Part shown: positions 3,771 through 64,000 of the stretch, one piece after another
How the letters are laid out: each line of letters starts with the position of its first letter
Position numbering within the stretch: position 1 is the first letter of the stretch
Source of the DNA: a virus
DNA: 64,000 bases
Strand: one strand, 5' to 3'
IMG/VR virus record: IMGVR_UViG_3300018080_008436
Coordinates: 58,998 to 122,997 of that record
Translations under genes and position numbers: made by a program
Notes under the pieces: generated by a model
Told to the model about the DNA's origin: nothing
Databases searched by the model: none
The model's input: the letters and a program-made list of their open reading frames with translations, nothing else

Positions 3771-3787
3771 TTCTGGTCTCCTTTTGT

Positions 3788-4961: not shown

Positions 4962-5024
4962 TGTATTTCTCCAATTTATATAAACATAGCATGTTGTTTG
5001 GGGATGTCAAGACGTTATTGAAAA

Positions 5025-5707: not shown

Positions 5708-5708
5708 A

Positions 5709-9263: not shown

Positions 9264-9868
9264 TTTAGATCCTCTATTGTGAAATCAACTCCAAACTCCA
9301 AAAGCATTCCAAGAACAAAAGCATGCCCCATCTTCATCTTAGGGTTTTTCAGAACATCATAATAAGACTTCCAAATTATTTTGTGGTCATAGCCATCGAA
9401 GTCTCTCAGATACAACTTTTGTCCTTTCCTAAGGCAAGTGCTTTCATACTCCATCTTCAGATAACTAAAAGCCTTAGTCTTCGCGATCTGACGATACAAC
9501 GGGATATAAATCTTCTCTCTGGCCTCTGTATAAGTCAACTGTTCTCCATCCCAGTATGAGTATAGGGGTTTGGCTCCTTTGCCCATAGGGTATCTTACAG
9601 CCTTTGGATTGTCCCATCCCTGTTTCGCCCATTCAAAGTACTCATATGTAGGATTCCCATCATCATCCACATGAAGGGGATAAACCTTTGAGTATTGCCA
9701 AGCATTCTCCATATTTTGAGCGACATAGTCACCATATAGTTCAACAGGACCCAAAAAGAATGGAGATAATCCCCGAGACCATGTTCGAGATCTTGACGTT
9801 GTATCAACCACCCGATCATCTGGGAATGTCTTGTCAGTCTGGCTTATGATTCTAAGATTTACACTCAT
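9260..9868 (-). CDS. hypothetical protein
   Basis: 202-aa ORF. Confidence 0.35.
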   Translation of the reverse strand: MSVNLRIISQTDKTFPDDRVVDTTSRSRTWSRGLSPFFLGPVELYGDYVAQNMENAWQYSKVYPLHVDDDGNPTYEYFEWAKQGWDNPKAVRYPMGKGAKPLYSYWDGEQLTYTEAREKIYIPLYRQIAKTKAFSYLKMEYESTCLRKGQKLYLRDFDGYDHKIIWKSYYDVLKNPKMKMGHAFVLGMLLEFGVDFTIEDLK

Positions 9869-19815: not shown

Positions 19816-19902
19816 TGGAGCGGGTAACAGGATTCGAACCTGCGTAAACTATTCGCCTCGAACTTGGAAGGATCGCGCTCTACCTGACTGAGCTATACCC
19901 GC
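19816..19902 (-). tRNA. tRNA (D-arm GCTC-AGTCAGGTA-GAGC; ~15-nt variable region; anticodon loop possibly CUUCCAA)
   Basis: Acceptor GCGGGTA/TACCCGC, T-arm GCAGG-TTCGAAT-CCTGT, and an encoded CCA. Confidence 0.55.
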
Positions 19903-19908
19903 AAAACC

Positions 19909-19982
19909 TGGAGCGGATAGAGGAATTCGAATCCTCGCCAAGAGGTTGGAAACCTCGTATGCTACCATTACACCATACCCGC
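19909..19982 (-). tRNA. tRNA-Gly (UCC)
   Basis: The structure GCGGGTA-TG-GTGT-AATGGTA-GCAT-A-CGAGG-TTTCCAA-CCTCT-TGGC-GAGGA-TTCGAAT-TCCTC-TATCCGC-T-CCA closely resembles T4 tRNA-Gly. Confidence 0.8.
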
Positions 19983-20928: not shown

Positions 20929-21017
20929 TGGTAGCGGAGGCAGGACTCGAACCTGCGAGGAATTTTACTTCCTTCTGGCTTATGAGACCAGCGAGTTACC
21001 AACTACTCTACTCCGCA
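20929..21017 (-). tRNA. type-II (long-variable-arm) tRNA with CAU anticodon
   Basis: Folds cleanly as TGCGGAG-TA-GAGT-AGTTGGTA-ACTC-G-CTGGT-CTCATAA-GCCAG-[AAGGAAGTAAAATTCCTC]-GCAGG-TTCGAGT-CCTGC-CTCCGCT-A-CCA. The discriminator is A73 and positions 1 and 72 are U and U. Confidence 0.6.
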
Positions 21018-33138: not shown

Positions 33139-34212
33139 CTAGGCTTTATGGCCATTTTTTTCTTTAATAGGGTTGGCCTTCAAAGCTTCATAGTCAGCTT
33201 TATACATGATTTCAACGAGTTCATTGAACTTCACTTTCGGTTCCCATCCCAAAACTTTCTTTGCCTTGGAGTAATCTCCCAAAAGTAGATCCACTTCAGC
33301 AGGTCGATAATACCTTGGATCAATCTGAACTAGTGCATCTCCGCTCTTACTGAAACCAACTTCTTGCTGACCCTCGCCTTCCCATTTCAATGGCATCTCT
33401 GCCAAATCGAAAGCGATATCAACAAATTCCTTAATAGAATGTGTTTCATTTGTTGCTACGACATAATCATCTGGCTTATCCTGTTGCAACATCAACCACA
33501 TTGCTTCAACAAAATCTGGTGCATATCCCCAATCTCTTCTAGAATACATATTGCCAAGATACAAACAATCTTGCATTCCAAGCTTAATAGATGCCACGGC
33601 CCTGGTGATCTTTCTTGTAACGAAAGTTTCTCCTCTTCTAGGAGATTCATGGTTAAAAAGTATCCCGTTGCTTCCATAAATCCCATAGGACTCTCTGTAG
33701 TTCATTGTAATTGAGAACCCAAACTGTTTTGCAACACCATATGGGGATCTTGGATGAAACCTTGTCAACTCAGTTTGTGGACTCTCATAAGGAATACCGA
33801 ATAACTCTGACGAAGACGCTTGATAGAACTTACACTCAGGGCAAAAGGATCTGATCGCTTCCAGTAATCTCAAAACTCCCAATCCCGTTACATCCGCTGT
33901 GTATTCTGGCTTGTCAAATGACACCCTTACATGACTCATTGCCGCAAGGTTATAACACTCGGTTGGCCTTACCTTTTGAACGATTCTATTCAAACTGTTC
34001 GCATCTGATAAATCACCATAATGAAGATGTAAATTTACATGTCTGTCATGAGGGTCTTGATAAATGTGATCGATTCTCTCTGTGTTGAATGAACTGGATC
34101 TTCTTATGACTCCATGCACTTCATATCCCTTATTCAAAAGTAGTTCTGCTAGATATGAACCATCTTGTCCTGTTATCCCTGTTACCAGTGCGATTTTCTT
34201 TGATTTAGCCAT
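33139..34212 (-). CDS. gmd: GDP-mannose 4,6-dehydratase
   Basis: [46 protein letters not shown]...[14 protein letters not shown] is a textbook GMD signature. Confidence 0.9.
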
Positions 34213-50800: not shown

Positions 50801-50878
50801 TGGTCGGGGTGAGACGATTCGAACGTCCGACTTCTTGCTCCCAAAGCAAGCGCTCTAACCAGGCTGAGCTACACCCCG
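50801..50878 (-). tRNA. tRNA-Pro (UGG)
   Basis: The minus-strand sequence CGGGGTG-TA-GCTC-AGCCTGGTTA-GAGC-G-CTTGC-TTTGGGA-GCAAG-AAGTC-GGACG-TTCGAAT-CGTCT-CACCCCG-A-CCA forms a canonical cloverleaf. Confidence 0.85.
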
Positions 50879-51480: not shown

Positions 51481-51915
51481 TCACCCCATTACCTTTACCA
51501 ACTCTTGAAGACCATAATTACTGCAAAAGTCCTTTCGAATATGATCCCCCTCAATCAGTTCCTGCACTTTTTCCACTATTTTTCTGGCCTTCTCTTCTTT
51601 ATCTTTCAATGGAACTACGTTGAACAAAGACTTACCTTCCCCAGGACAGTAGTAAATAGTTGTCAGACAGTTCTTCGGATAGAATCGAGTCTCATGCCAC
51701 TTCAATGTAGGATTACTGTCTTTGTCATACCAATTAGCTTTGGCGAACTGTTTGTTGTATTCTTCCCAATAAGAAAAATCAAGACTGATTCTCCAAACAC
51801 CATCGTTATCTACATGAGCATCAACAACTTTTGCTCTTTGCCTTTTATCAAAGTCCATGTCATGTTTTTCAACATAGTCAGTGAATTCAACATGCTTACC
51901 AATATAGCCTTTCAT
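51481..51915 (-). CDS. hypothetical protein
   Basis: 144-aa ORF. Confidence 0.4.
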   Translation of the reverse strand: MKGYIGKHVEFTDYVEKHDMDFDKRQRAKVVDAHVDNDGVWRISLDFSYWEEYNKQFAKANWYDKDSNPTLKWHETRFYPKNCLTTIYYCPGEGKSLFNVVPLKDKEEKARKIVEKVQELIEGDHIRKDFCSNYGLQELVKVMG

Positions 51916-52283
51916 TGTGTTTTCTCCAACGGTTTATTTCTGTAAAATTTATTTCCATCAGTATGCAGTCTTCTCTTTTCAATAGAACGAATCAAATTGA
52001 ACATTGCAGACCCTACACCTTTCTTACGAAACTTTTTGCGGACGAAGATCCCAATGTTCGGAGTACCAAGACATCCTCTGTATCGCATCCTGGCTTTTGT
52101 TGTGCAGGCGACTCCGATGTATTGTCCCTGAAATTTTGCCAGAACCATTAATGAAATAAGTTCTGGAGTCGAATAGACCTTCCTCAATGTCCATCCGTTA
52201 ACGTATAACCTATTAGAAATTGCAACCTTCGTCATCTCTCTAATCTCTGCCCTACGTCTTGAAATTTCAAACTCTATCTTCAT
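51912..52283 (-). CDS. GNAT-family N-acetyltransferase (putative)
   Basis: Motif A-like R-x-x-G-x-G/A (RKKGVGSAMF) on a ~120-aa protein. Confidence 0.45.
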   Translation of the reverse strand: MKIEFEISRRRAEIREMTKVAISNRLYVNGWTLRKVYSTPELISLMVLAKFQGQYIGVACTTKARMRYRGCLGTPNIGIFVRKKFRKKGVGSAMFNLIRSIEKRRLHTDGNKFYRNKPLEKTQ

Positions 52284-52745
52284 CTAACACCTTTCAAACT
52301 AATTAGACAGACAACTATCATCCCAGTAGCCAAAACCATGGCCGAATTAGAAGAAATCATTGTTGCAATCAAAAGCATGATCGTTACTCATCCAGGATCA
52401 ACATCACTTGAGTCTTCTGGGAAGTTAATGTCAGACCAATGAGTGATTCTGACATGTCCCAAGAAATCTAATCCCTCTCCATCAAACTCACCACCATCCC
52501 CTTCTTTAATATTGAATCTGGTGATACAACAAACTTTTTTGTTAATAATACCAATTATTCTTCTGTAACCGCAGGCCAGGACTTTTCGTCTATCATCTGG
52601 CACTCTTACTTCTCTGCTGATCCAGTCAATCATTTTTCTTCACTCTTTTGTAGTAATTAGAAAGCCTGGGGTTCTTGTCGCAAATAGATTATGCATCTCT
52701 TTGCAATGAGGGTATTCACCCTGCCACCTTTGCGAGTCTTTTTCA

Positions 52746-53069
52746 TTAGCCCAAATCCTCAATGTCGATGAAGTCAACCGAAGGGCTTACACAACATTCG
52801 AATCGACCTTTCTCAAAATAGAACTCAGGGCCATACGACCACTTTATTCCGACCAAGTCTTCTACGTCTAATTCGAACTCTTCTTCGTAACCCTCGTCAT
52901 AGTGAGGTTTACAGAAAGTATTGACGATCTTTTCTAAAAACCCAGGTTTGTCTTTCAGATAGTTAAACCCCTCTTCATAAGTTTCAATCTCATCAGGGAT
53001 GATGAAACCAACTGGGCACATATATCCACCGTCTTCACGGTCAATTATTCCGAACAACATTATCTGCAT
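52746..53069 (-). CDS. hypothetical protein
   Basis: 107-aa ORF. Confidence 0.35.
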   Translation of the reverse strand: MQIMLFGIIDREDGGYMCPVGFIIPDEIETYEEGFNYLKDKPGFLEKIVNTFCKPHYDEGYEEEFELDVEDLVGIKWSYGPEFYFEKGRFECCVSPSVDFIDIEDLG

Positions 53070-53480
53070 TTATTCTTTCTCCCTTGCAATCCACCCGAAG
53101 GGATCATGTTGACCACCCCCAGTTCTTCTTGTTAACTCACTATGACAGTTCCCGCACCTTCTGGACATCCCAGGAAATGGAGAGCATCTTGTTGGGCCAT
53201 CACCAACTTCATCATGACATTGGTAACAAAGCCAAGCAACATTTTTTAGCTCTTTCCACTGACTCCACTTATCACGATCATTCAAATCGTTAAAATATTC
53301 GATGTCTTGATCGTCGTAAGTTTCTTCAGCTTCAGATTCATCCTCTGCCATTCCCAGAACCTGGATGACCTGATTTATACGCCGTTCTGCTTCTTCATAG
53401 GCATCTTCATCAGACATAGGATGCTCTTTTTGAAGGATCTTCGCGAGTTCTCTGATGGCTCTAGACATATTATTCCTCAA
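53070..53480 (-). CDS. zinc-finger protein
   Basis: CYQCHDE...CSPFPGMSRRCGNCH. Confidence 0.4.
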   Translation of the reverse strand: MRNNMSRAIRELAKILQKEHPMSDEDAYEEAERRINQVIQVLGMAEDESEAEETYDDQDIEYFNDLNDRDKWSQWKELKNVAWLCYQCHDEVGDGPTRCSPFPGMSRRCGNCHSELTRRTGGGQHDPFGWIAREKE

Positions 53481-53669
53481 TCATTTCATGGTCTTCGCAC
53501 CATTTCGGGACTTTATGACGTAGCACATCTGTCGCCCATTTTCGGCATCTACCAGAATGGCTATTCCTTATGTCTCCAGAATAGTGTATACAATTCATGC
53601 ATCTGGGCTTAGTATGATCGAACTGATGTATGTTGTACCAGGGCAGTTTGGTTTTACCATCCATACTCT

Positions 53670-53945
53670 TCATCTCAGACTTCTTACAGGTTTGTTGCAA
53701 AAGGGGCACTTTTTTGTTTTATGTATTGCGTCTGACATCTCTTGAAACTTTTCACTTCCAGGTTCAGCGTTGATGAATAGCTTCTTTCCCATAAAATGTG
53801 CGTCCTCGCACCATTCGGACTCTTTTTCTTGATTCATGATTTCTTTTTCACATTTGTAGCAGAGTCCATGGCTCAGAACTTCTTCTTTAGTAACGAACCC
53901 TTTGCACTTAGTGCATCTGAATTTTGAAAAGTCTACCCAGTGCAT
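53670..53945 (-). CDS. small Cys-rich zinc-ribbon protein
   Basis: CTKCKGF...CYKCEKE...CPFCNK. Confidence 0.4.
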   Translation of the reverse strand: MHWVDFSKFRCTKCKGFVTKEEVLSHGLCYKCEKEIMNQEKESEWCEDAHFMGKKLFINAEPGSEKFQEMSDAIHKTKKCPFCNKPVRSLR

Positions 53946-54144
53946 TAATCGTCCTCTTCATCCCAGTCTTCATCTTCCCCATCCCAATCTCTTCCTTCTT
54001 TGACTTTGCCTCTCAGCGCATCAATTTCAAGATCAGAGAGACGGATGAATTTACTCCCGTTCCTCGACTCAACTTTATCAAGAAGTTGCCTAATGACTTT
54101 TTTCAAATCACTGATCTCTTCTTGCATTCCTTGGAAATCGTCAC

Positions 54145-54519
54145 CTAATCCATACATGATGGAACTCCTTTTTGCCTCGGATTTCTGGTCTTCTTATAGA
54201 TCTTCTCAATCAGTGCTTCAACCTTATTTTCTCTTTTTTGAGTTGGCTTCCTGATATATGATCTTGACATCGCTACCAATGACCTGAGTGTTTTGGCCTC
54301 AACAACGATAGGATAATCAAACTTCTCATCTGACATCACTGTGACGAATTGCTCGTCAAACCCGTCATCATCTTCGTCAAACACTCCAGTTTCTTCAGCA
54401 AGGCCGTCAGTAAGATTCTTCATCTCAGTGCGACGAATAGAATCTTCTGGGAATCTATTCTCAACGGCTGACATAGCACAATTAAGAAGCCAACGGAACT
54501 CCTTTTTACTGATGTTCAT
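54145..54519 (-). CDS. hypothetical protein
   Basis: 124-aa ORF. Confidence 0.35.
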   Translation of the reverse strand: MNISKKEFRWLLNCAMSAVENRFPEDSIRRTEMKNLTDGLAEETGVFDEDDDGFDEQFVTVMSDEKFDYPIVVEAKTLRSLVAMSRSYIRKPTQKRENKVEALIEKIYKKTRNPRQKGVPSCMD

Positions 54520-54799
54520 AACAATCCCTCAGATAGTTAATTGTTTCAACGAGCCACTCATGAGGCATTGGCATCATCTCATTTTGATTCAATGAATCTG
54601 CCAACTCTTGTTTGCTTTCATAAGTGTTAACCATGCCATCAGTCATTGATATGAGGCAATACTTAGTTCCCTTTGCGGTTGGCAGGAAACCTATTTTGCT
54701 TGTCCACTTGGCTGAGTTCCCTGTCGGCTTATCGAACTTTCTGTTCTTGCAAACAAACCGACCTGGGATGATATCTTCTTCTGTCCATGTATATTTCAT
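54506..54799 (-). CDS. hypothetical protein
   Basis: 97-aa ORF. Confidence 0.35.
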   Translation of the reverse strand: MKYTWTEEDIIPGRFVCKNRKFDKPTGNSAKWTSKIGFLPTAKGTKYCLISMTDGMVNTYESKQELADSLNQNEMMPMPHEWLVETINYLRDCYEHQ

Positions 54800-55303
54800 T
54801 GTATTCTCCTAAAGTTGATCTATTGATCCTATATTCAACTTCTTAAACATAGCATCTATTAAGGTAATGTCAAGCGAAGAATCAAGATTTAAGTCTGAAA
54901 CTACGACATGTCCTATTATGATCCCAACTCGGAAGTTGTTCCGACAACTCAGCGCAGATTAAAATCTCCTTCTCCCCATTAATAACCCTAAAATGTGGAG
55001 TATTTCTGTTTTCGGTACTTAGTCATTTCTTTAATGACCTTCTTTCTGTAGCCTGTTTAAAACTCGCATCATCCCATGCTTATGAATTGTATGATGATAT
55101 GATCCGTCCCAGACCTCTCGGATAAGCATTACCTCTTTTCCATTAATCACTGCCAATACTTCAGCCCATATACCACTTCTCCGCAATGTAATTGATGATA
55201 TGCCCACCTCATCCTCTTTGAGATCATGAGAGTCCAAGGTAACAATTTTTGTTATTGTGTCATCCATTAGGTCTAGTGTTCCATAGCGATATATCCAAAA
55301 GGA

Positions 55304-55636
55304 TCATTCTGGGTTTGGTAAAGACTTATATCCACAGTTACTGCAATAATACCCCATAGGAATCACACGAGAGAAGTAAGGGTCTGGCTTATCACATTCG
55401 CAGACCTTCTCTTCTTTAGGCTCTGGAAAAAGCTTACACTTACAACACCGACCATCTTCTAAGAGAGTATATAATCCATCATGCCTACAATATGATTGAG
55501 AGTTATCAATGCAAAACTGAGCGACCTCAAGAACGTCTTTCGCTGTGACGTTTCCCAGAACCTTAACTTCTGGCTCCCAAGAAGAAACACATTTCTTCAG
55601 TTCTTCGGCCTTCTTTTTAATGCTCATTACCTTCAC
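55304..55636 (-). CDS. small Cys-rich protein
   Basis: CRHDG...CCKCK...CECDKP...CSNCGYK. Confidence 0.4.
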   Translation of the reverse strand: MKVMSIKKKAEELKKCVSSWEPEVKVLGNVTAKDVLEVAQFCIDNSQSYCRHDGLYTLLEDGRCCKCKLFPEPKEEKVCECDKPDPYFSRVIPMGYYCSNCGYKSLPNPE

Positions 55637-56037
55637 CTGCCTCCGTTTCCATCTTCTTTAGGTCTAGTATTCCACGCAGTTACTGCCCAACCTAGTCTTG
55701 ATTGTTCGACAGACGCTTGGCATTTTGGATTTTGACATTTGATGATGCGACCTCGCACTGTCCCACTATTGTCGGTATAACGAGGCAATATTTTGATATC
55801 ATCACCTTCACAGAATGGACATAGAAGCAACTCATGTCCACTTACAAGAACTACATGGTCGTGCGCATGGACGGTCACACTGGTTTTGCTCTGCTTTGCT
55901 TCGTCTATACAGTCAAGACACCACATTATACCATAACCCAGGTTTTCCTGAGGATACTTGGGTTTCATGCATTTGTCACAAAGACCGATTCCTTCTCGAA
56001 TTTCGCACTTACTCTTTTTTGCGGTTGAGTCAGTCAT
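55633..56037 (-). CDS. Cys-rich zinc-finger protein
   Basis: CDKCMKP...CLDC...CPFCEG...CQNPKC. Confidence 0.4.
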   Translation of the reverse strand: MTDSTAKKSKCEIREGIGLCDKCMKPKYPQENLGYGIMWCLDCIDEAKQSKTSVTVHAHDHVVLVSGHELLLCPFCEGDDIKILPRYTDNSGTVRGRIIKCQNPKCQASVEQSRLGWAVTAWNTRPKEDGNGGR

Positions 56038-56606
56038 TGTTTGCCATCCTTCTCTCTCGCCTTTCGTTCAAGAAAATTAAGTTCATCTCGCTCAAATACT
56101 CTGGCTAAAGAATCCTGTAACTCTGACCACTCATATGATGTGAACTGGTCGTAATAATTCTCAGGATTTTTCAACACAATATTAAGGGCTTTTCTTGTCG
56201 CCTCCCACTCACCTTTATAAAAGGTAGCAGGGCGACAACGATGTGTTGATTCTTTTTCAGCTTCTTTTTGTTCTTCGAAGCCTGCTCCTAAGAATGGTTC
56301 CCCAGGTTCCACTTCTCCATTCCAGAGAGCCATTGCCCATTGAATCATGAATTGATACATGACTCCATAAAAGCTTAAATCTTCATCCCACATGTCAACG
56401 AATTCATCAAGAACAACTCCTTCATCATCACATATGGATTGAAAACTAATTTGAGGACCCCGACACCTACATCTTTCGCAGGAAACCGCTCTGGTTTCAT
56501 AATCCATAGGTCCAACGTCCAAATATTCTGCTGTCTTGCAGAATGGACAATCTCTTAATCCTTCTACCATTTTAACAATCCTCAATAGCTCGTCCCATAA
56601 AACCAC
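56034..56606 (-). CDS. Cys-rich protein
   Basis: CPFCKT...CERCRC. Confidence 0.4.
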   Translation of the reverse strand: MVLWDELLRIVKMVEGLRDCPFCKTAEYLDVGPMDYETRAVSCERCRCRGPQISFQSICDDEGVVLDEFVDMWDEDLSFYGVMYQFMIQWAMALWNGEVEPGEPFLGAGFEEQKEAEKESTHRCRPATFYKGEWEATRKALNIVLKNPENYYDQFTSYEWSELQDSLARVFERDELNFLERKAREKDGKQ

Positions 56607-56814
56607 TAACCTTTACTTCAGGAGACTTTGGAATCCCCTGTTTCATTGTTTCTTGAAATTTCTTTAAGCAAGGACTACACAGAGTCACAGGATTTGCAAC
56701 TACTGGAGAGTTTCCTATTACGGTACATCCGAAATTTCCACAACATGAACATTCTCCAACTGATTTGTAGACAAATTTCAAGTCCAAGTCCATTTTTCTT
56801 CTCCTTTGTTAATT

Positions 56815-57069
56815 TTACCAATCTCCACTGATCCACGCATCCCCTTCGTCACAGGATATTTGTAAACTAATCGCTTCACATTCATTGTCAGTGCATCTTA
56901 CTGGATCACCATCATAAAACATTTGATCATCAGACTTTGTATAGACCTCAATGGTAGACCCACAACATGGACATTCATCCCATTCGCAAACAACCCACTT
57001 TTCATTAATGTCTGTCATTTTCTTCTCTCTTTTCCTTACGAAGAACTCGAACGATTTCTCGCAATTCAA
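56815..57069 (-). CDS. small zinc-ribbon protein
   Basis: CEWDECPCCGST...CTDNEC. Confidence 0.35.
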   Translation of the reverse strand: MNCEKSFEFFVRKREKKMTDINEKWVVCEWDECPCCGSTIEVYTKSDDQMFYDGDPVRCTDNECEAISLQISCDEGDAWISGDW

Positions 57070-57479
57070 ATTGAGTAAGTTCAGGATACTTGCCTTTCAG
57101 CATTCTTTTGATCTTGATATAGCTGACACCTTTACTGGCATAAATTCGAGCAAGGTTAAGTGGAGCATCATCATTTCCCTTTTTGTCGGGATAGACAAAC
57201 ATTGGACAGTTGCTCATAATTTCCGACATAGTCATTGCTCTTCTCCAATCAAAGCATGTTTTATCACATGAAAGGACATCGTCCCACCATTCTCATGCAA
57301 ATCAGAATCCTTCGTTTCACTTCTTAATTTCTCTGCATGAGCCTTCGCGTCATCTTCGTTTTCAAAAATAGATTCTATATATCTCCAGCGTAGTGAATTC
57401 AATCCATGCACCTGGGCTTTGTTCTGTCAAACTGACGAATTCCCCAGAATCCATTTTTATTTTCCATCTTCTACCTTTC

Positions 57480-57944
57480 TCACTCTTCAGGTTCATGCTC
57501 GTCATTCACCAAAATAAATTTCGGGGGTTGAGTGGGGGACTCTTCATGAGGACTGGGAGGACCACCACTTTCCTCAATATCAATCAACCATCTTTCTTCT
57601 TTAAAATTCCATGACCAAGCAAATCCATCCCATGTGCAAGATACATCATCAATCTCTTTTCCATTGATCTCTTTTCTGTACTGCTCTGGGAACGATGGAC
57701 CTCTTTTACGTCCAGTAACCCATCTTTCTTCATAACCTCTCAGAACTGCATAGAATGTTGCCATGCCCCATCTTTCGTCTTTTGCTACTTCATGAAGAAA
57801 ACGAAGGGCATCATCTTCTTTCGTAAACATCTTCACTTCATGAATCAACTGTTGCATCGTCTTGCAATCTTTAACAGTCATTTTATCCCCAACCTTCTTT
57901 ATCTTTAGGTTCGCACCAGCCTTCTGCCCATTTATTTTCATCAT
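57480..57944 (-). CDS. hypothetical protein
   Basis: 154-aa ORF. Confidence 0.4.
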   Translation of the reverse strand: MMKINGQKAGANLKIKKVGDKMTVKDCKTMQQLIHEVKMFTKEDDALRFLHEVAKDERWGMATFYAVLRGYEERWVTGRKRGPSFPEQYRKEINGKEIDDVSCTWDGFAWSWNFKEERWLIDIEESGGPPSPHEESPTQPPKFILVNDEHEPEE

Positions 57945-57963
57945 GTTTCGATGTCGGTCATTG

Positions 57964-58437
57964 TTAGCCCCTGGTTACTTTGACTAGCTTACCGTCTTTT
58001 AGCTCTTTGTAGTCATCTTTGAAGTAGTTCAGGTATGTTGTGGGTTTCTTATGAACCGACCACCTTTTGATAAACTTCATAGCATCACTTCTTCTATAGA
58101 AGAAAAGGGTGAGTTCCAATGAAGAACCAGTCGATCTGTACTCATCATTCCCCATGCACCATCCCTTTTCCCCCTTACACGAACTTGATTGATTGTCTTT
58201 GACGTTTTCATTCAGCCAATCAATGACCTCTTGCTTCAGGAATGGAACATTTTTGATTCTGAGAAAGACATCTTCAACTTCCATTCTCTTCATTTCCACG
58301 AGATTGTGCCAGTCTTCTTGTTCCGTTTTGTAGTCTTGGCGACTAAACTTGTCTATGCCAACCATGTAGGAGCAATCAAAAACTTCTCCGTCCCAATGAG
58401 ATTTGGAACACCAACAATGGTTTTGATGAAAGTGCAT
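57964..58437 (-). CDS. hypothetical protein
   Basis: 157-aa ORF immediately downstream of the PARP-like gene. Confidence 0.4.
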   Translation of the reverse strand: MHFHQNHCWCSKSHWDGEVFDCSYMVGIDKFSRQDYKTEQEDWHNLVEMKRMEVEDVFLRIKNVPFLKQEVIDWLNENVKDNQSSSCKGEKGWCMGNDEYRSTGSSLELTLFFYRRSDAMKFIKRWSVHKKPTTYLNYFKDDYKELKDGKLVKVTRG

Positions 58438-58467
58438 TTTATCTACCTTTTTCAGACTTGCCGTTGA

Positions 58468-59793
58468 TTATTTTCCGTTAGGTGAAAACTCAACCAAGTA
58501 CTTCAGGTTAACTTGGGACGTTCTGTAAACGATCATTTCGTTGTTCATGACCCCAGACTTGTTCGCCTTAGCGAAAGTGGAATCAGTATTACGAACAGGG
58601 AAACCGCTTCCGTAACGAGCAGGGACATGATAATTGCCCATTGCCATATCCAAAAGGAACATGAAGCAATTGTTGTCAGCCTTTCCGCCCCAATAGCCAT
58701 AAGCGTAGTTTAACGCCTTCGTAGACTGATCTGAGGCGTAGACCCCATTCCCGAACATTCGGCCCGTACAATGGCTTGAAGAGGCTGGAGGAATGACCAG
58801 ACCGCCCTTCAGGATCGAAAGAAGGTTGGATGCTCTTGTACCATGCCATAACTCCCAGATGTTGTCCATCTTCGCCCCATCCAATTCGAAAGCCTGACGG
58901 ACAGTATTGATGTCAACCTTGTAAATGGTTTTGACATCCAGGTGATAACAGGCATGTCTTGACTGACGGGTTTTCCCATACATCTTTTTAATATGGGCCA
59001 GAGTCTTGGAATCTTCTACCAGATCCAGTTGAACATCGAAGACCTGTTCTTCAGGAAGTTTCACAGTCTTCTTGCGTCCAGGCTGAGTGGTTGCAGTAAC
59101 CAAAGATGCCTGTAAAGCATCAACAATTGACTTCTGTTTCTGGACCTTGGCAAGATCAGACCAGAAATTATTCACATCCAGTCGCTTTCTTCCAATGTTC
59201 TGAGGGACCAACATAAGGTAGTCATTGGTCAAGTCGCCTAATTTTGCAGTGTAACGACCTTTGGCAACCATATCACCAATCTTGACCAGGATGTCATTGG
59301 CATCATCAATATTACCTTGAGTGACGATACCCATGGGCGTTGAAAACAGCCCTGTAGTATCATTGAAGGTAATCTGACCGCCAGTAGCAGATGAGATCTG
59401 ATGGGCGTTGACTTTCGTCAGATAGGTGATCAACTTTGCAACGTTGGGGTTGTTATATTTGATTTGTTTCTTGGCAACGCTTTCGAGGTTGGCCTTCGCA
59501 ACGGTTTTCTGAGCGGTCTGAGTCGTTGTTCCACCTTCAACGATCTCAATCTCTCGATAAGCGATCTCACCATTTCGACCAGAACGAAGTTTAGATCTAA
59601 TCTTGCTTTCAGCAAACTTTCGGCCTGCCGCTTCACTACCTTTCTGGTAGGTTCGGCTTTGTCCTGAATCTCCTACGCGACCATAGCGGACGGTTACTTC
59701 TCCATCGTCATAGATTTCAACATTCCAGAATTTGTTGTTGTTCTTTTTGTGATCGCTTTTGATGAAATGGCGTTTTTCGATTAATGTACCCAT
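58468..59793 (-). CDS. WGR-domain poly(ADP-ribose) polymerase (PARP)-like ADP-ribosyltransferase
   Basis: N-terminal WGR domain (KFWNVEIYDDGEVTVRYGRVG). C-terminal PARP catalytic H-Y-E triad region: LWHGTRASNLLSILKGGLVIPP...GRMFGNGVYASDQSTKALNYA...NNEMIVYRTSQVNLKYLVEF. The last segment is near-identical in pattern to the PARP1 C-terminus [24 protein letters not shown]. Confidence 0.8.
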   Translation of the reverse strand: MGTLIEKRHFIKSDHKKNNNKFWNVEIYDDGEVTVRYGRVGDSGQSRTYQKGSEAAGRKFAESKIRSKLRSGRNGEIAYREIEIVEGGTTTQTAQKTVAKANLESVAKKQIKYNNPNVAKLITYLTKVNAHQISSATGGQITFNDTTGLFSTPMGIVTQGNIDDANDILVKIGDMVAKGRYTAKLGDLTNDYLMLVPQNIGRKRLDVNNFWSDLAKVQKQKSIVDALQASLVTATTQPGRKKTVKLPEEQVFDVQLDLVEDSKTLAHIKKMYGKTRQSRHACYHLDVKTIYKVDINTVRQAFELDGAKMDNIWELWHGTRASNLLSILKGGLVIPPASSSHCTGRMFGNGVYASDQSTKALNYAYGYWGGKADNNCFMFLLDMAMGNYHVPARYGSGFPVRNTDSTFAKANKSGVMNNEMIVYRTSQVNLKYLVEFSPNGK

Positions 59794-59804
59794 TTTTTAG
59801 TCTC

Positions 59805-59845
59805 CTGTATTGCGGAGCAGAACTCCGCTGTTTTTAGTTTTTAAG
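59805..59845. terminator. GC hairpin GCGGAGCAGAACTCCGC followed by T-runs on the plus strand
   Basis: The inverted repeat GCGGAG-N5-CTCCGC is followed by TGTTTTTAGTTTTT, between the PARP-like gene and the upstream gene. Confidence 0.35.
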
Positions 59846-59905
59846 TCTTTAGCGTATACAATAGTTCATCTAGGTCTATTGTCAACCTGTACTAAGAAAA
59901 AAATC

Positions 59906-60634
59906 TTACTTAGTATTTCTCTTCTTCAGACCTCTTTCATATATGAAGGCAAGTCTGGCGCTTCTAAGGCTATTCTCGCAAATTCTTTGGACATCTGTAA
60001 TCAAATTGCTGGCCAAAGTATCCAAGCTGATGTCACTTTCACTTCCTTCCTGCAAAATCTTAATGATTTCAAAAGCGTCATCAGATAAAGAAACCATGTT
60101 TCCCTCTGTTACTTCTAACTTGACATTCTCCACTTCAGATTCAACCGTTTTTGACTCAGGGTCATCAACAGGTGCTTGATCTTGTTTAGGGACTATCGTT
60201 CCTTCTCGAATTCTTCTTGCGATATGTTTCTCAAATCGATAGATGAAACTCTTGACCGAGTTCTTTATCTCTTCAGTACAACTTCTCATTGAGCAAAGAG
60301 GCAGAAGAAAGTCACGAACAAAATCTCCAGAAACATAATGCTTCCCATCAATTTCGATACAATGTCTGTTAATTTTTGCACGATAATGCTCTCCATCTGT
60401 GAGCCATTCTCCCCTCCTTTCAAGGGAACTTGCATAATGACTAAGGCGACCACCATCCTTATAGGTTAAGACACTAGAGATGTCTTTCAATTTATAGAAA
60501 TTCTTAACCTTAGATCCCGTTAATCTAGCACACAAAATGCTTCGCCCGTTGATTTCTTCTTCTATGAGAGTGCAGTTTTCAGAGTCTTGGGATGAGAAAG
60601 ATCTGAGTTTGATTTGATTTACTTTTGTAGACAT
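59906..60634 (-). CDS. hypothetical protein (possible KilA-N-like N-terminal domain)
   Basis: 242-aa ORF. The N-terminal ~100 aa loosely resemble KilA-N/APSES-type DNA-binding domains. This is a weak call. Confidence 0.3.
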   Translation of the reverse strand: MSTKVNQIKLRSFSSQDSENCTLIEEEINGRSILCARLTGSKVKNFYKLKDISSVLTYKDGGRLSHYASSLERRGEWLTDGEHYRAKINRHCIEIDGKHYVSGDFVRDFLLPLCSMRSCTEEIKNSVKSFIYRFEKHIARRIREGTIVPKQDQAPVDDPESKTVESEVENVKLEVTEGNMVSLSDDAFEIIKILQEGSESDISLDTLASNLITDVQRICENSLRSARLAFIYERGLKKRNTK

Positions 60635-60743
60635 TTTTTAGTTTCTCCTTTTTTAGTTTTTAGTTTGAAACATGGACATATTATACAGGGGGCACGGGAA
60701 AAACTTCAGTTCACAGAAAAATTTATAATTGCTGTGCCTAATC

Positions 60744-61601
60744 TTAGAAGATATCCTCCATGACCTCAATGGAGTCGTCTTTTTCGTCCACTATTGGTTC
60801 AACCTCTTCTGCGGAACCAATTCCTAATGTTTCTTGGATCTCAGATTGAGTCAACGGTTCTCTATCCTTAAGATATGAACCACATGGAGCACCACCTTCG
60901 AAGTAAAAACCTGAATAGAACAGTTCGCTGAATGTTAGTGTAATAAGTTGAGATGTCTTCTTAACTGATCTCAAAATCAAACCATCAAACTTTCCACTTT
61001 CAGTATCGAGATTCAACCCCTGAACGGTATATGTCTCGCCTTTACTGTCAAAGATTTTTGTGCTTATAGCACCGTTATCTTTCATTACATCTTTGTAGCT
61101 CATTGGTTCAAAACATTTGTCGGTAATCAAAAGACAGGCTTGTTGTATACTTTTCACTTCAATATCTTCATCAGTTGCGATATCAACTAACCGTATTTTG
61201 TTCGCCTCAATAATAATTGAACACTCAACTGGAATCCAAAGCTCAATATTGTCAATGGACTCTTGAGAAAGGGTAAGATTGGGGGCATTAGAAATCTGAG
61301 CTATAGAGACTTTGTAATCAAGTTGCTCCGCTTTCTGCAAACACAATGAGCATGTCGCAACAGAAGGATCTTCCGTATATCTTGATGGAGTGGTGTAACT
61401 TCCATTATAAGAAGAGTATTGCGTTGTATTAACAAATCCTCCGCAAAACTTATGCTTATACGAAGGGACTCCTGGGAAAATCTCTTTTAACTCTTCCCAC
61501 CTCGCTTTAGTTCTAATTGAGAGGTGAATATCTCCTGTCGCGTTTTTGTTGGTAACATGAGGATCGAAACGTACACCTTGTCTGGATACAGAGCTAGACA
61601 T
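60744..61601 (-). CDS. hypothetical protein
   Basis: 285-aa ORF. Confidence 0.4.
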   Translation of the reverse strand: MSSSVSRQGVRFDPHVTNKNATGDIHLSIRTKARWEELKEIFPGVPSYKHKFCGGFVNTTQYSSYNGSYTTPSRYTEDPSVATCSLCLQKAEQLDYKVSIAQISNAPNLTLSQESIDNIELWIPVECSIIIEANKIRLVDIATDEDIEVKSIQQACLLITDKCFEPMSYKDVMKDNGAISTKIFDSKGETYTVQGLNLDTESGKFDGLILRSVKKTSQLITLTFSELFYSGFYFEGGAPCGSYLKDREPLTQSEIQETLGIGSAEEVEPIVDEKDDSIEVMEDIF

Positions 61602-61641
61602 TGTATTGCTCCTTTATTAATATTCGTTGTAATAATTAGTG

Positions 61642-62277
61642 TTAGTCTTTCTTAACGAACTTCTTGATTTTCTTTTCCATTGGAAGTTCGACACTACCAG
61701 TAGTCATAAACCTTAGTCCCAAGTTTATCATAGCCAGGACAGTTGCGGGGAGATACATTGATGTTTGGGGGTCATCAGAAACAAAAACCCCTAGAATACA
61801 CCCAGCAGTGGCCAAGACATTTGAAATAACAGTCTTGGATTTATACCAAGGTTTCTTTCCTTCAGTGACCTCCTTGTCTGGATTATTGGCAAAGATCTCT
61901 TGCACATCTTCAACAATCTCAGGAAGGCTTTCAATAACATCTTCTGCGACTTCCATGAGATCCAAGCCATCTTCCGACTCTTCAGGTTTTATCTCAGGTT
62001 CTATTTCAGGTTCGGGTTCTGGTTCCTCTTGGAGGTTTTCACTCTCAATGGGACTCGTACTGGGACTCTCTTGTGGAACAGTTTCCTCAACTGGTCGATC
62101 AAAATACGGATTAACATCTTCTTTTTCCTCTTCTACAACGGTGCTTTGATCGATAAGGACTAAATCACCAGCTTTGAGTTTCTCTCTGAACTCATCAATG
62201 TCATCCAAAGAAGCAGGACCGACATTTTTTACCTCAAGCTGAACAGGTACATTATTAATTTTTACATCCAAATACAT
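61642..62277 (-). CDS. acidic protein with C-terminal membrane anchor
   Basis: A central PEPEPEIEPEIKPE acidic tract and a C-terminal transmembrane helix (VISNVLATAGCILGVFV). It is the last gene before the CRISPR array. Confidence 0.4.
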   Translation of the reverse strand: MYLDVKINNVPVQLEVKNVGPASLDDIDEFREKLKAGDLVLIDQSTVVEEEKEDVNPYFDRPVEETVPQESPSTSPIESENLQEEPEPEPEIEPEIKPEESEDGLDLMEVAEDVIESLPEIVEDVQEIFANNPDKEVTEGKKPWYKSKTVISNVLATAGCILGVFVSDDPQTSMYLPATVLAMINLGLRFMTTGSVELPMEKKIKKFVKKD

Positions 62278-62416
62278 GTCGCATTCGATTTAGGAAATAC
62301 CTAAATCTGCACCTATTGTTTAAGTTGCTATATATTTATTCAAGTTAAAAATCACTTTTTCCTTTTCCGTAGCTCGTCTAGGTTTATTATATCAGTCAGG
62401 TTGTCTGTCAGCGTCT

Positions 62417-64000
62417 GTCACATTTGGCTCAAGTTTTTCTTGAGCCTATACCCGTATCCAGCAGACGTTTGACGGGCAGGTCGAGTTGGTCACAATTAGC
62501 TCAAGTTTTTCTTGAGCCTATACCATATCAGAGAGCAAAAAAGAAGTTTGCTCAAGCCCTGTCACATTTGGCTCAAGTTTTTCTTGAGCCTGTACCTAAG
62601 AGAGCTTATCTGTTCCAACGATTCTTGTATAGTGTCACAATTAGCTCAAGTTTTTCTTGAGCCTGTACCACAGGATTCTAAGCCTCGTCACAATTAGCTC
62701 AAGTTTTTCTTGAGCCTGTACCTTGTTGAAACCGTCAGAAGCGGCGGGTTGGGAGAGAGTCACATTTAGCTCAAGTTTTTCTTGAGCCTGTACTAAGTCT
62801 GGGAACAGGGCAAAGAGCATGTTCTACACTCGTCACATTTGGCTCAAGTTTTTCTTGAGCCTGTACCATTTCTCTGCCTTGAATCGCTTCAGGTTGTCAC
62901 AATTAGCTCAAGTTTTTCTTGAGCCTGTACCGAAAGAAGCTCTGGTAATTCAGATAATCCAGGTCTTGTCACAACTGGCTCAAGTTTTTCTTGAGCCTGT
63001 ACCGAATTCTGGGTTCAGGGAGACCCACGTCGGATCATGTCACAACTGGCTCAAGTTTTTCTTGAGCCTGTACCATTTCTCTGCCTTGAATCGCTTCAAG
63101 TTGTCACAATTAGCTCAAGTTTTTCTTGAGCCTGTACCTTAGAAACCTTGTTACTACTGATGAGGTCACATTTAGCTCAAGTTTTTCTTGAGCCTGTACC
63201 AGTTGATGGCCGCTAACCTGTGGAGCCTTGGCCTGCGTCACATTTGGCTCAAGTTTTTCTTGAACCTGTACCATTCGAAATCCATTCCGTCAACCAGATT
63301 GCTCAGGGGTTACAATTAGCTCAAGTTTTTCTTGAGCCTGTACCTTACAGTCTAAAAACGCTTCCAGAATTGGCGGCAGGTCACATTTGGCTCAAGTTTT
63401 TCTTGAGCCTGTACCTCAATGAAAACGATTGGGTATTGCAGAGTCTCACTTTGTCACAACTGGCTCAAGTTTTTCTTGAGCCTGTACCGTGCAAACGCAT
63501 TAGTTTGAGCAGGTCTTGCCAGCAGTCACAACTGGCTCAAGTTTTTCTTGAGCCTGTACCAGATTTCATAACGGGGTTGATGTCACAATTAGCTCAAGTT
63601 TTTCTTGAGCCTGTACCAGGAGTAAGGATCAGTTCTGTTACACCTACCTTCTTGTCACAATTAGCTCAAGTTTTTCTTGAGCCTGTACCAGAAGTAATCG
63701 AAATGATTGACTGGAGAGCATTCCTCGTCACAATTAGCTCAAGTTTTTCTTGAGCCTGTACCACCTGCATTGCGCTCGACTGCAAGTTGTCAGGCGTCAC
63801 AATTAGCTCAAGTTTTTCTTGAGCCTGTACCATTCCCTGTCGGAGGCTGAGAAGTGGGATTTGATCATGTCACATTTGGCTCAAGTTTTTCTTGAGCCTG
63901 TACCAGAATACGTGAGGGGAGAACGATTTGCAGATATCCATGTCACATTTGGCTCAAGTTTTTCTTGAGCCTGTACCATTCCCTGTCGGAGGCTGAGAAG
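62417..64000. CRISPR. CRISPR array of at least 22 repeats, running off the window edge
   Basis: The 36-bp repeat GTCACA[AT][TC]T[AG]GCTCAAGTTTTTCTTGAGCCTGTACC has an internal 8-bp palindrome GGCTCAAG/CTTGAGCC. Repeats start at 62417, 62489, 62561, 62634, 62687, 62759, 62832, 62896, 62968, 63039, 63103, 63165, 63237, 63309, 63380 and onward. Spacers are 17-37 bp, mostly 35-37. The two repeats nearest 62417 carry CCTATACC instead of CCTGTACC. An AT-rich flank lies at 62280-62416. Confidence 0.9.

What the first reader, a model, noticed from the sequence alone, without database searches (positions are those of the whole stretch)
62417..64000. CRISPR array (at least 22 repeats) in a T4-related phage with no cas gene in 62 kb of flanking sequence
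The rIIA, rIIB and Rnl2 homologues place this genome among T4-like phages, which are not known to carry CRISPR loci. The array has 36-bp repeats with a central 8-bp hairpin and spacers mostly 35-37 bp, which is typical of type I-B or type III geometry.

Read on the minus strand, the strand on which nearly all genes lie, the repeat ends in ...AAUUGUGAC, resembling the 8-nt AUUGAAAC-type 5' handle of type I/III crRNAs. The degenerate repeats (CCTATACC) sit at the 62417 end, so the leader probably lies beyond the window edge and the array is transcribed on the minus strand.

No Cas10, Cas3, Cas12 or Cas1/2-like gene is visible in the window. The array could therefore be a stand-alone 'hijacker' array using host Cas proteins, or the cas genes could lie just downstream of position 64000.
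Basis: partly seen in the sequence, partly recalled or inferred. Interest (0 to 1): 0.85.

Follow-up and report, generated by a model that had tools for sequence, protein, structure and literature searches.

The report
Huge-phage CRISPR array with Cas12 and Cas3
The repeats are a real 26-repeat CRISPR array in a roughly 524-kb phage genome, and its cas genes (a large Cas12 nuclease and a Cas3 helicase-nuclease) lie just past the window edge, making it a rare single-effector-plus-Cas3 hybrid that has been noted computationally, but I found no experimental test of how it destroys its targets.

Summary
The window holds 23 copies of a 36-nt repeat, and the full array has 26 repeats and 25 spacers. 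The array is not orphan. An identical 523,871-bp metagenomic contig continues past position 64000 with 3 more repeats and a 216-nt leader. Next come a complete cas3 (820 aa, HD and helicase motifs intact) and, overlapping it by 4 nt, a 1119-aa Cas12 with a conserved RuvC triad.

No cas1, cas2, cas4 or Cascade gene lies within 10 kb upstream of cas12 or in the 62 kb of window downstream of the array. No tracrRNA-like anti-repeat was found.

The Cas12 belongs to the Cas12b/Cas12h/Cas12o1/"Cas12X" group. Relatives sit next to a Cas3 in 6 of 9 loci examined, and the two proteins co-diverge (r = 0.85). The repeats share one covarying stem-loop and a 3' AUUGYRAC end.

This matches the "Cas12h variant associated with Cas3" described computationally in 2023, so it is a new member of a known but mechanistically untested kind. 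The host is a huge phage, not demonstrably T4-like.

The stand-alone "hijacker" idea and the type I-B/III geometry are not supported. No spacer target was found.

The parts
62417..64000 (-). CRISPR array: 23 of its 26 repeats and 22 complete spacers. The array continues 193 nt beyond the window. In minus-strand (crRNA) sense the repeat is GGTACAGGCTCAAGAAAAACTTGAGC[C/T]A[A/G][A/T]TGTGAC.
   Evidence: L012 8278-20636 is 100% identical to window 64000-51642. The full array is L012 8085-9861.
62417..62524 (-). Trailer-end repeats R26 and R25 carrying the degenerate GGTATAGG 5' end (plus strand CCTATACC), and spacer S25 between them.
   Evidence: The degenerate repeats lie at the end farthest from the cas genes and the leader.
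62868..63102 (-). Polymorphic block. Near-identical 28-nt spacers S19 (62868-62895) and S16 (63075-63102) flank three units that are absent from a second assembly (L002, Ga0180437_10211429).
   Evidence: (alignment of L002 with the window).
62278..62416 (.). Trailer/intergenic stretch between the last repeat and the next gene.
61642..62277 (-). First gene downstream of the array: 211 aa, no family match. It is not part of the system. It served as the anchor that recovered the DNA beyond the window.

Best explanation
The repeats are the CRISPR array of a compact type V-plus-Cas3 system in a huge phage of about 524 kb. No adaptation gene lies within 10 kb upstream of cas12 or in the 62 kb downstream of the array. 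On the window's minus strand the order is cas12 (1119 aa), cas3 (820 aa, overlapping cas12 by 4 nt), a 216-nt leader, then 26 repeats and 25 spacers. Everything except the array lies just past position 64000.

Shown:
- The array, its orientation and its leader.
- An intact Cas3 with HD and SF2 helicase motifs.
- A Cas12 with a conserved RuvC triad (D618, E904, D985) and a Cas12 fold.
- Conserved, co-diverging Cas12-Cas3 pairing in related loci.
- A conserved, covarying repeat stem-loop.

Inferred mechanism: the array is transcribed from the leader. Cas12 itself processes and binds crRNAs made of a full-repeat stem-loop followed by the spacer, as described for its relative Cas12h1, without a tracrRNA. 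The complex forms an R-loop on matching DNA and cuts or nicks it with RuvC. Cas3 then loads on the displaced strand and degrades the target processively. The likely targets are competing mobile elements or host DNA, but no target has been identified.
For: Continuation of the locus: L012 is 100% identical to window 51642-64000 and continues past it.

Gene content beyond the window:
- The 820-aa protein matches PADLOC Cas3c at E = 5e-65 and several Cas3b models down to E = 2e-52. It also matches TIGR01596 cas3_HD above its cutoff and Pfam Cas3-like_C_2.
- Its HD residues H69, D70, H101, H131, H132, D228 and H229, the Walker A motif and the DE motif are conserved.
- The 1119-aa protein matches TnpB and Cas12 RuvC models and Cas12o1/Cas12X chains at E = 3e-15.
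- A family profile matches Cas12o1/X at 3e-64, Cas12h1 at 3.5e-25 and Cas12b at 1e-12.
- The AF2 model has pLDDT 79.8. Its best Foldseek matches are Cas12X, Cas12o1, Cas12b and Cas12h1, at E = 4e-24 to 1e-18.
- D618, E904 and D985 are conserved in at least 90% of 78 relatives.

Pairing with Cas3:
- Cas3 sits adjacent to the Cas12 relative in L012, L018, L019, L021, L024 and L026.
- The Cas12 and Cas3 identity matrices correlate at r = 0.85, with an exact Mantel test of 2/720.

Repeats and leader:
- The repeat folds better on the minus strand, -11.9 to -13.6 kcal/mol against -9.9.
- The consensus structure over 12 repeats has compensatory changes at 10 of 12 pairs.
- The window's repeat variants fall on a G-C/G-U closing pair and a 3-nt bulge.
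- The leader carries an 11/12 sigma-70-like promoter and motifs shared with homologous loci.

Other points:
- No anti-repeat was found.
- Pooled spacer GC is 46.1% against 40.5% for the window, reached in 0 of 2000 resamples.
- Precedents are PMC10691335, PMC10910872 and PMC11830025.
Against: - No protospacer was found for any spacer. The searches covered INPHARED phages and PLSDB plasmids with the whole array, IMG/VR with five spacer cores, GTDB genomes with one spacer, and the phage's own 82 kb. Interference targets and the PAM are therefore unknown.
- The array looks partly static: interspersed repeat variants, two duplicated spacers and five short spacers.
- No adaptation genes lie within 10 kb upstream of cas12 or in the 62 kb downstream of the array.
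- The Cas12-Cas3 physical or functional hand-off is pure inference. One relative on another ~507-kb contig (L023) and the Cas12o1-like locus L025 have arrays but no Cas3 within the DNA held around cas12 (8 kb each side in L023; the whole 5.8-kb contig in L025), so Cas3 is not obligatory for this Cas12 group.
- crRNA processing by Cas12 is extrapolated from Cas12h1.
- About 440 kb of the genome was not examined.
Confidence: 0.8

Rival explanations
1. Cas12 alone carries out crRNA-guided interference. The neighbouring Cas3 does something else, such as acting as a decoy against host type I CRISPR immunity, general DNA degradation or recycling during infection, or helping spacer acquisition with host Cas1-Cas2.
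For: - The RuvC triad is intact, so Cas12 needs no extra nuclease.
- Relatives in L023 and L025 have arrays without a Cas3 nearby.
- Viral cas genes acting as anti-CRISPRs have been reported; a preprint titled 'Diverse viral cas genes antagonize CRISPR immunity' appeared in the listing but was not read.
Against: - cas12 and cas3 overlap by 4 nt here and by 1 nt in L018.
- The pairing recurs in 6 of 9 loci, in both gene orders.
- The two proteins co-diverge: r = 0.85, Mantel 2/720.
- The HD and helicase motifs are all intact, which a mere decoy would not need.
Confidence: 0.15
2. The array is a decaying relic that is no longer used. It persists next to cas genes but has lost function, which would explain the repeat heterogeneity, the duplications and the truncated spacers.
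For: - Interspersed repeat variants, duplicated spacers and 17-28-nt spacers.
- An indel polymorphism between assemblies.
- No adaptation genes in the region examined.
- No spacer matches.
Against: - Every repeat variant preserves the predicted stem-loop, because the changes fall on a G-C/G-U pair and the bulge.
- The related L023 array shows compensatory changes within its stem.
- Both cas ORFs are full-length with intact catalytic motifs.
- The leader motifs are conserved across loci whose proteins are only about 30% identical.
- Lack of database matches is usual for environmental phage spacers.
Confidence: 0.1
3. This is a stand-alone 'hijacker' array that relies on the host's type I or type III Cas proteins.
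For: - The repeat's 3' end (AUUGUGAC) resembles the AUUGAAAC handle of type I-B, I-C and III repeats (sequence; the comparison itself is from general knowledge).
- No Cascade gene is present in the 82 kb examined.
Against: - The array is 216 nt from a cas12-cas3 operon on the same strand.
- The same repeat architecture accompanies Cas12 relatives in seven other loci, L018, L019, L021, L023, L024, L025 and L026.
- No exact copy of the repeat core exists in 185,579 species genomes.
Confidence: 0.03
4. It is a non-CRISPR minisatellite, or an assembly chimera joined at about 62.3 kb.
For: None beyond the absence of any Rfam CRISPR-DR match.
Against: - Unique spacers of non-triplet lengths, adjacent cas genes, and a conserved leader and repeat structure.
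- The gene-array junction is identical in contigs from at least four separate assemblies.
- The array-cas junction is present in the ENA contig and in JGI contig Ga0180434_10000228.
- The two JGI contigs that break inside the array sum to 522,761 bp, against 523,871 bp for the ENA contig.
Confidence: 0.01

Closest known systems
Cas12h-variant associated with Cas3 (Altae-Tran et al., PNAS 2023, PMC10691335)
   Same: - A Cas12 of the Cas12b/Cas12h lineage with a predicted active RuvC.
- An adjacent Cas3 with an active HD and a complete helicase.
- No adaptation module.
- A CRISPR array.

All four features were verified here.
   Different: - The paper gives about 900 aa for the Cas12h family. This protein is 1119 aa and its closest homologue is 1137 aa. 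These two form their own sub-branch with the order cas12, cas3, array, rather than cas3, cas12, array.
- I could not compare sequences with the paper's loci, so identity of the clade is inferred from the description.
- Here the carrier is a ~524-kb phage and the array is long, at 26 repeats.
'Cas12-Cas3' putative class 1-2 hybrid (Altae-Tran et al., Science 2023, PMC10910872)
   Same: - A single Cas12 effector genetically coupled to a type I-C-like Cas3. The best PADLOC model here is Cas3c.
- In that study the Cas12 co-purified with crRNA.
- The same mechanistic idea: Cas12 targets and Cas3 degrades.
   Different: - That Cas12 is described as Cas12m-like, non-cleaving, and about 690-740 aa by the supplementary coordinates.
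- Here the RuvC triad is conserved, and a Cas12m structure matches the family profile only at E = 1e-6.
Cas12h1 (type V-H), solved structures 8y9l/8y9n, PMC11830025
   Same: - Profile homology at E = 3.5e-25 and fold match at E = 1e-18.
- A 36-nt repeat forming an elongated stem-loop whose 5' and 3' ends pair.
- No tracrRNA and no adaptation genes.
   Different: - Cas12h1 is 870 aa and is not reported with Cas3 in the paper read.
- Single-sequence search does not connect the two proteins.
- Cas12h1's preference for nicking the non-target strand has not been tested for this protein.
Cas12o1 / 'Cas12X' / 'Cas12-2' (PDB 8xca, 8zqb, 8wru)
   Same: - The closest solved relatives by sequence (E = 3e-15 single sequence, 3e-64 profile) and by fold (E = 4e-24).
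- The repeat of a Cas12o1-like locus (L025) has the same architecture and ends in AAUCGCAC.
   Different: - About 908 aa, with only about 15% identity in structural alignments.
- The Cas12o1-like locus examined has no Cas3 and sits in what looks like a bacterial context (acetate kinase, cupin genes).
CRISPR-Cas systems of huge phages (Al-Shayeb et al., Nature 2020, PMC7162821), including CasPhi/Cas12j
   Same: - A phage genome above 200 kb with a type V effector and an array but no Cas1, Cas2 or Cas4.
- Rich in tRNA and auxiliary genes.
   Different: - CasPhi is about 750 aa and only a distant fold match, at E about 4e-6.
- That paper describes a helicase replacing Cas3 in a type I-C variant. 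In the passages retrieved it does not describe a Cas12 paired with Cas3.

Membership tests
CRISPR array | Series of near-identical direct repeats (about 23-55 nt) separated by unique spacers of similar length | tested here: met
   26 repeats of 36 nt and 25 spacers, 24 of them distinct sequences, mostly 35-37 nt
CRISPR array | Adjacent cas genes and a leader on one side, with degenerate repeats at the far end | tested here: met
   cas12-cas3 lies 216 nt from repeat 1. The leader has promoter-like sites and motifs shared with homologous loci. Degenerate repeats R25 and R26 are at the distal end
CRISPR array | Spacers match foreign genetic elements (protospacers) | tested here: inconclusive
   No significant match in phage, plasmid, IMG/VR or GTDB searches. 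Only six spacers were searched in the large collections, by exact match. Spacer GC differs from the phage's own DNA
CRISPR array | Transcription and processing into crRNAs | not testable with these tools
   Needs RNA-seq. Only indirect support is available: strand-asymmetric folding and covariation
Type V (Cas12) CRISPR-Cas | Single large effector with a C-terminal tripartite RuvC domain and a bilobed Cas12 fold | tested here: met
   Cas12f1-like_TNB at 2.9e-7, above its cutoff. TnpB, Cas12f and Cas12b models match at 1e-8 to 1e-13. D618, E904 and D985 are conserved. Foldseek's top 25 matches are all Cas12 effectors
Cas12h-variant + Cas3 system (PMC10691335) | Cas12 of the Cas12b/Cas12h lineage, predicted catalytically active | tested here: met
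   Profile against PDB gives Cas12h1 3.5e-25 and Cas12b 1e-12. Foldseek gives AacCas12b 6e-20 and Cas12h1 1e-18. The RuvC triad is conserved. Placement in the authors' tree was not tested
Cas12h-variant + Cas3 system (PMC10691335) | Adjacent Cas3 with active HD nuclease and complete helicase | tested here: met
   PADLOC Cas3c 5e-65. cas3_HD scores 50.8 bits against a cutoff of 43.45. HD, Walker A and DE motifs are conserved. There is a 4-nt overlap with cas12
Cas12h-variant + Cas3 system (PMC10691335) | No adaptation module (cas1/cas2/cas4) | tested here: met
   None in the 10 kb upstream of cas12 (precomputed Pfam) or in 87 ORFs of the window. The remaining ~440 kb of the genome was not examined
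Cas12-Cas3 hybrid with Cas12m (PMC10910872) | Cas12m-type, nuclease-inactive effector of about 600-740 aa | tested here: not met
   1119 aa. The RuvC triad is conserved. Cas12m4a matches the family profile only at 1e-6, over the RuvC core
Type V-H proper (Cas12h1) | Cas12h-like effector of about 870 aa, with a 36-nt repeat forming an elongated stem-loop and no tracrRNA | tested here: inconclusive
   The repeat length and fold, and the lack of an anti-repeat, fit. The protein is 250 aa longer and is linked to Cas12h1 only through the profile
   No such family in the window ORFs or among the genes flanking cas12-cas3. Only the Cas3 is type I-like
T4-like phage (Straboviridae) | Close kinship of core genes to T4 and a genome of about 160-250 kb | tested here: not met
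   RIIA, RIIB and Rnl2 are present, but RIIA's best hits are roseophage and Rhodobacter phages and a 595-kb uncultured phage. The contig is 523,871 bp. Structural genes were not examined

The most novel reading that the evidence does not exclude
A phage of about 0.5 Mb uses a true class 1-class 2 hybrid. A RuvC-active Cas12, possibly a non-target-strand nickase like Cas12h1, finds the target with crRNAs from this array and hands the R-loop to a co-evolved Cas3. Cas3 then shreds the DNA over long distances. This would give the phage an offensive weapon against host or rival genomes that is kept without its own adaptation genes.
Probability: 0.45. Interest if true: 0.75.

Novelty: new member of a known kind. 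Interest (0 to 1): 0.55.

Why it matters
A single-protein RNA-guided effector coupled to a processive Cas3 would blur the class 1/class 2 divide. It could also give a compact tool for programmable long-range deletions.

The pairing has been noticed only in brief computational remarks. In the literature I could search, I found no experimental test of its interference mechanism.

This locus offers several things for such a test:
- A complete, apparently intact example: both genes, the leader and a 26-repeat array, in a genome that appears fully assembled.
- Six co-diverging relatives for comparison.
- A conserved crRNA fold.

It also adds to the evidence that very large phages carry CRISPR systems without an adaptation module.

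Tried and rejected
- **Repeat core searches.** Exact searches in IMG/VR and in GTDB genomes found nothing. The metagenome scan found only a second copy of the same array plus single chance hairpins.
- **Rfam.** No CRISPR-DR or other family matched the array or leader, at gathering threshold or at E <= 1.
- **Spacer targets.** All of these gave nothing significant:
  - whole-array blastn against 50,697 phage and 72,556 plasmid records, where the best E-values were 0.1-0.6;
  - five spacer cores against IMG/VR and one against GTDB genomes;
  - all spacers against the window, L012 and the other loci.
- **tracrRNA.** A search for an anti-repeat in the window and L012 found no match longer than 11 nt.
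- **Word-indexed protein searches with Cas12.** The single-sequence search and the search with alignment A1 returned only the query itself. The exhaustive HMMER search was needed to find relatives.
- **Structure prediction.** Single-sequence AlphaFold2 was useless, with pLDDT 33.5. The 78-sequence alignment was required.
- **Link to the published Science 2023 loci.** I looked up a 686-aa relative (P0202), which returned only a 2.6-kb contig. The Cas12o1 paper, the Tordoff et al. paper and the Al-Shayeb 2022 paper are not held.
- **Rejected readings.** I rejected a coding repeat (spacer lengths are not in frame), replication iterons or a terminator array (unique spacers plus adjacent cas genes), and a chimeric assembly.
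Full report
**1. The observation**

Window 62417-64000 holds 23 in-register copies of a 36-nt repeat. The plus-strand consensus is GTCACAATTAGCTCAAGTTTTTCTTGAGCCTGTACC, with start-to-start spacing of 53-73 nt. Spacers are unique apart from two duplications. Their lengths (17-37 nt, mostly 35-37) are not multiples of three, so this is neither a coding repeat nor a simple minisatellite.

The array runs off the window end.

PADLOC and Pfam scans of 87 window ORFs found no Cas family.

**2. What lies beyond the window**

I looked up the 211-aa ORF next to the array (61642-62277, minus strand) in public assemblies. This returned a 523,871-bp ENA contig (locus L012) that is 100% identical to window 51642-64000 and continues past it. 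Read in the direction of the window's minus strand, the locus is:

| Feature | L012 coordinates | Would-be window position |
|---|---|---|
| 1119-aa ORF (cas12) | 2050-5409 | about 66869-70228 |
| 820-aa ORF (cas3), overlapping cas12 by 4 nt | 5406-7868 | about 64410-66872 |
| Leader, 216 nt | 7869-8084 | about 64194-64409 |
| Array, 26 repeats and 25 spacers | 8085-9861 | 62417 to about 64193 |

The same junctions occur in several independent assemblies. In JGI sample 3300017991 a 435,133-bp contig ends inside the array from one side and an 87,628-bp contig ends inside it from the cas side. Together they make 522,761 bp, about 1.1 kb short of the ENA contig. This argues against chimerism and suggests a genome of about 524 kb whose assembly tends to break in the array.

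**3. The cas genes**

*Cas3.* The 820-aa protein is a complete Cas3:
- PADLOC Cas3c at E = 5e-65, and several Cas3b models down to E = 2e-52.
- TIGR01596 cas3_HD above its cutoff, and Pfam Cas3-like_C_2 and DEAD.
- Solved Cas3 chains at about 1e-16.
- HD residues (H69, D70, H101, H131, H132, D228, H229), Walker A (G312, G314, K315, T316) and D424/E425 conserved against 15 homologues.

*Cas12.* The 1119-aa protein matches only through its C-terminal RuvC region in family libraries: TnpB 9e-13, Cas12u3/Cas12f about 1e-10, Cas12b about 1e-8, and Pfam TNB above its cutoff.
- An exhaustive HMMER search found 123 relatives, 55 of them below 1e-10.
- D618, E904 and D985 are conserved in at least 90% of 78 relatives.
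- The family profile matches Cas12o1/"Cas12X" structures at 3e-64, Cas12X2 at 1.5e-41, Cas12h1 at 3.5e-25, Cas12b at 1e-12 and Cas12m only at 1e-6.
- An AlphaFold2 model built on that alignment has pLDDT 79.8 and pTM 0.78. Its best fold matches are Cas12X, Cas12o1, AacCas12b and Cas12h1, at E = 4e-24 to 1e-18.

*What is absent.* No cas1, cas2, cas4 or Cascade gene lies in the 10 kb upstream of cas12. That stretch holds a 5'-3' exonuclease, a SIS-domain protein, a caspase-like peptidase, a sigma factor and a RuvB-like ATPase. None lies in the window either. No anti-repeat was found.

**4. Is the Cas12-Cas3 pairing meaningful?**

I looked up nine loci that encode relatives of one or the other protein.
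- Cas3 and the Cas12 relative are adjacent in six: L012, L018, L019, L021, L024 and L026.
- One contig (L022) is too short to judge. The 23 residues after its cas12 begin ...AHS..., like a Cas3 N-terminus, which is only suggestive.
- Two have arrays but no Cas3 in the DNA held around cas12: L023 on a 507-kb contig (8 kb each side), and L025, a Cas12o1-like locus on a 5.8-kb contig in a bacterial-looking context.

Two architectures exist. L012 and L018 have cas12, cas3, array, with Cas12 of 1119-1137 aa. The other four have cas3, cas12, array, with Cas12 of 891-984 aa.

Across the six pairs the Cas12 and Cas3 identity matrices correlate at r = 0.85, and only 2 of 720 permutations reach that value. 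The two genes have therefore diverged together as a unit.

**5. The RNA**

In cas-gene sense the repeat is GGUACAGGCUCAAGAAAAACUUGAGC(C/U)A(A/G)(A/U)UGUGAC. It folds into an outer 4-bp helix, a 3-nt bulge and an inner 8-bp helix, at -11.9 to -13.6 kcal/mol (z = -4.1 to -4.9). The opposite strand forms only the inner helix, at -9.9 kcal/mol.

The interspersed repeat variants in the window fall exactly on the closing G-C/G-U pair and the bulge, so they do not disturb the structure.

Repeats from L018, L019, L021, L023, L024, L025 and L026 have the same layout and a 3' end of AUUG(U/C)(A/G)AC or a near variant. The consensus fold has compensatory changes at 10 of 12 pairs. L023's own array shows compensatory variants within its stem.

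This layout resembles the published Cas12h1 crRNA: a 36-nt full-repeat elongated stem-loop with no tracrRNA (PMC11830025).

The leader has the best sigma-70-like site in the region (TTGACA-16-TATAGT, 11/12 matches; L012 7875-7902). It also has two motifs shared with homologous loci: GTTCWTTGACAAYTDAATAT and GAGGYKCGCKGAAA-like.

**6. Targets**

No protospacer was found in any search. The pooled spacer GC of 46.1% exceeds that of the phage window, 40.5%, and no 2000-fold resample reached it. This fits spacers of foreign origin but does not identify them.

Duplicated spacers, five short spacers and an indel between assemblies suggest turnover by recombination rather than active acquisition.

**7. 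The carrier**

The window encodes RIIA, RIIB, an Rnl2-type RNA ligase, sigma factors, four tRNAs and many auxiliary enzymes.

RIIA's best matches are Rhodobacter and roseobacter phages and a 595-kb uncultured phage. T4-like phages reach only about 34% identity over 61% of the protein.

"Huge phage" is supported. "T4-related" is not. No capsid or terminase gene was examined, so the phage assignment rests on these marker genes and the contig size.

**8. Comparison with what is known**

Huge phages with type V systems lacking adaptation genes were reported in 2020 (PMC7162821).

Altae-Tran et al. [quoted passage not shown] They describe an active HD, a complete helicase and a predicted active Cas12. 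That is exactly the feature set verified here.

A Science 2023 paper lists a rare "Cas12-Cas3" class 1-2 hybrid, but with a Cas12m-like, non-cleaving effector of about 700 aa (PMC10910872). That defining feature is not met here.

The 2025 classification does not mention Cas3 in type V in the passages retrieved.

I therefore file this as a new member of a known, computationally described kind. In the literature I could search, I found no experimental test of how that kind carries out interference. The larger Cas12 and the cas12, cas3, array order mark a distinct sub-branch.

**9. Mechanism**

*Shown:* the anatomy, the intact catalytic motifs, co-divergence, the conserved crRNA fold, and the conserved leader.

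*Inferred, with my estimate about 0.5 for the Cas3 step:* Cas12 processes and binds crRNAs, forms an R-loop and cuts or nicks with RuvC. Cas3 then loads on the displaced strand and degrades the target processively.

Cas12h1's reported preference for nicking the non-target strand makes a hand-off to Cas3 attractive, but it has not been tested for this protein.

**10. Verdict**

This is a real CRISPR array and it is not orphan. It belongs to a phage-borne Cas12(h/o-like)-Cas3 system. It is interesting as a clean, complete example of a rare hybrid, but it is not a new kind of system.

Noticed in passing
window 58468-59793 (-): A 441-aa protein with a WGR + PARP regulatory + PARP catalytic architecture, that is, a eukaryote-style PARP1-like enzyme encoded by a phage (Pfam E = 1.4e-27). 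The only DNA-level similarity of this region to cultured phages is 164 bp at 72% inside this gene, to the 319-kb Stenotrophomonas phages CM1 and RAS14.
   Followed up: partly
window 19819-19902, 19912-19982, 20932-21017, 50804-50878 (all -): Four tRNA genes detected by Rfam. Anticodons were not determined.
   Followed up: no
window 25944-29846 (-): A 1300-aa ORF, the largest in the window, with no Pfam or PHROGs match.
   Followed up: no
window, whole (coordinates of the individual ORFs not determined, except 33139-34212 for GDP-mannose dehydratase): A dense set of auxiliary metabolic and translation genes: ThyX, NAD synthase, APS kinase, three GDP-mannose dehydratase/epimerase-type proteins, peptide deformylase, peptidyl-tRNA hydrolase PTH2, NUDIX, an S49 peptidase, an M50 peptidase and two sigma-70 region-4 proteins. 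This is typical of very large phages.
   Followed up: no
window ORF set (members not identified): The PADLOC scan of 87 ORFs gave two MzaA-like hits (best E = 9.5e-13), one PDC-S07 hit (2.5e-13) and weak PtuB hits. These may be defence or anti-defence genes carried by the phage.
   Followed up: no
L012 1871-2053 (just upstream of cas12, outside the window): A 60-aa ORF with several cysteines (..CSTCPARSIC..) whose stop overlaps the cas12 start by 4 nt. It has no family match. It may be a small accessory protein of the system or may be unrelated.
   Followed up: no
L012 7930-7960 and 8001-8020 (leader, outside the window): A terminator-like hairpin with a T-run (CTCTCGCAGAGAG TTTT) lies between the strong consensus promoter (7875-7902) and the leader motif conserved among loci (TTCTTTGACAATTTATTGAT). 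The array may therefore be driven by the second element, with the first producing a short transcript.
   Followed up: partly
L023 11572-12918 (507-kb contig ERZ27297473 k141_487181): A second huge-phage-sized contig carries a 1093-aa relative of the Cas12 and a 19-repeat array, but no Cas3 within 8 kb. Its repeats also exist as interspersed variants, with compensatory changes in the stem.
   Followed up: partly
L018 6368-6462: The closest homologous locus (Cas12 31% identical, Cas3 39%) has only a two-repeat mini-array with one 23-nt spacer.
   Followed up: no
window 62868-63102 vs L002: The array is polymorphic between assemblies. L002 lacks three repeat-spacer units lying between two near-identical 28-nt spacers, consistent with recombination between duplicated units or with assembly collapse.
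   Followed up: yes
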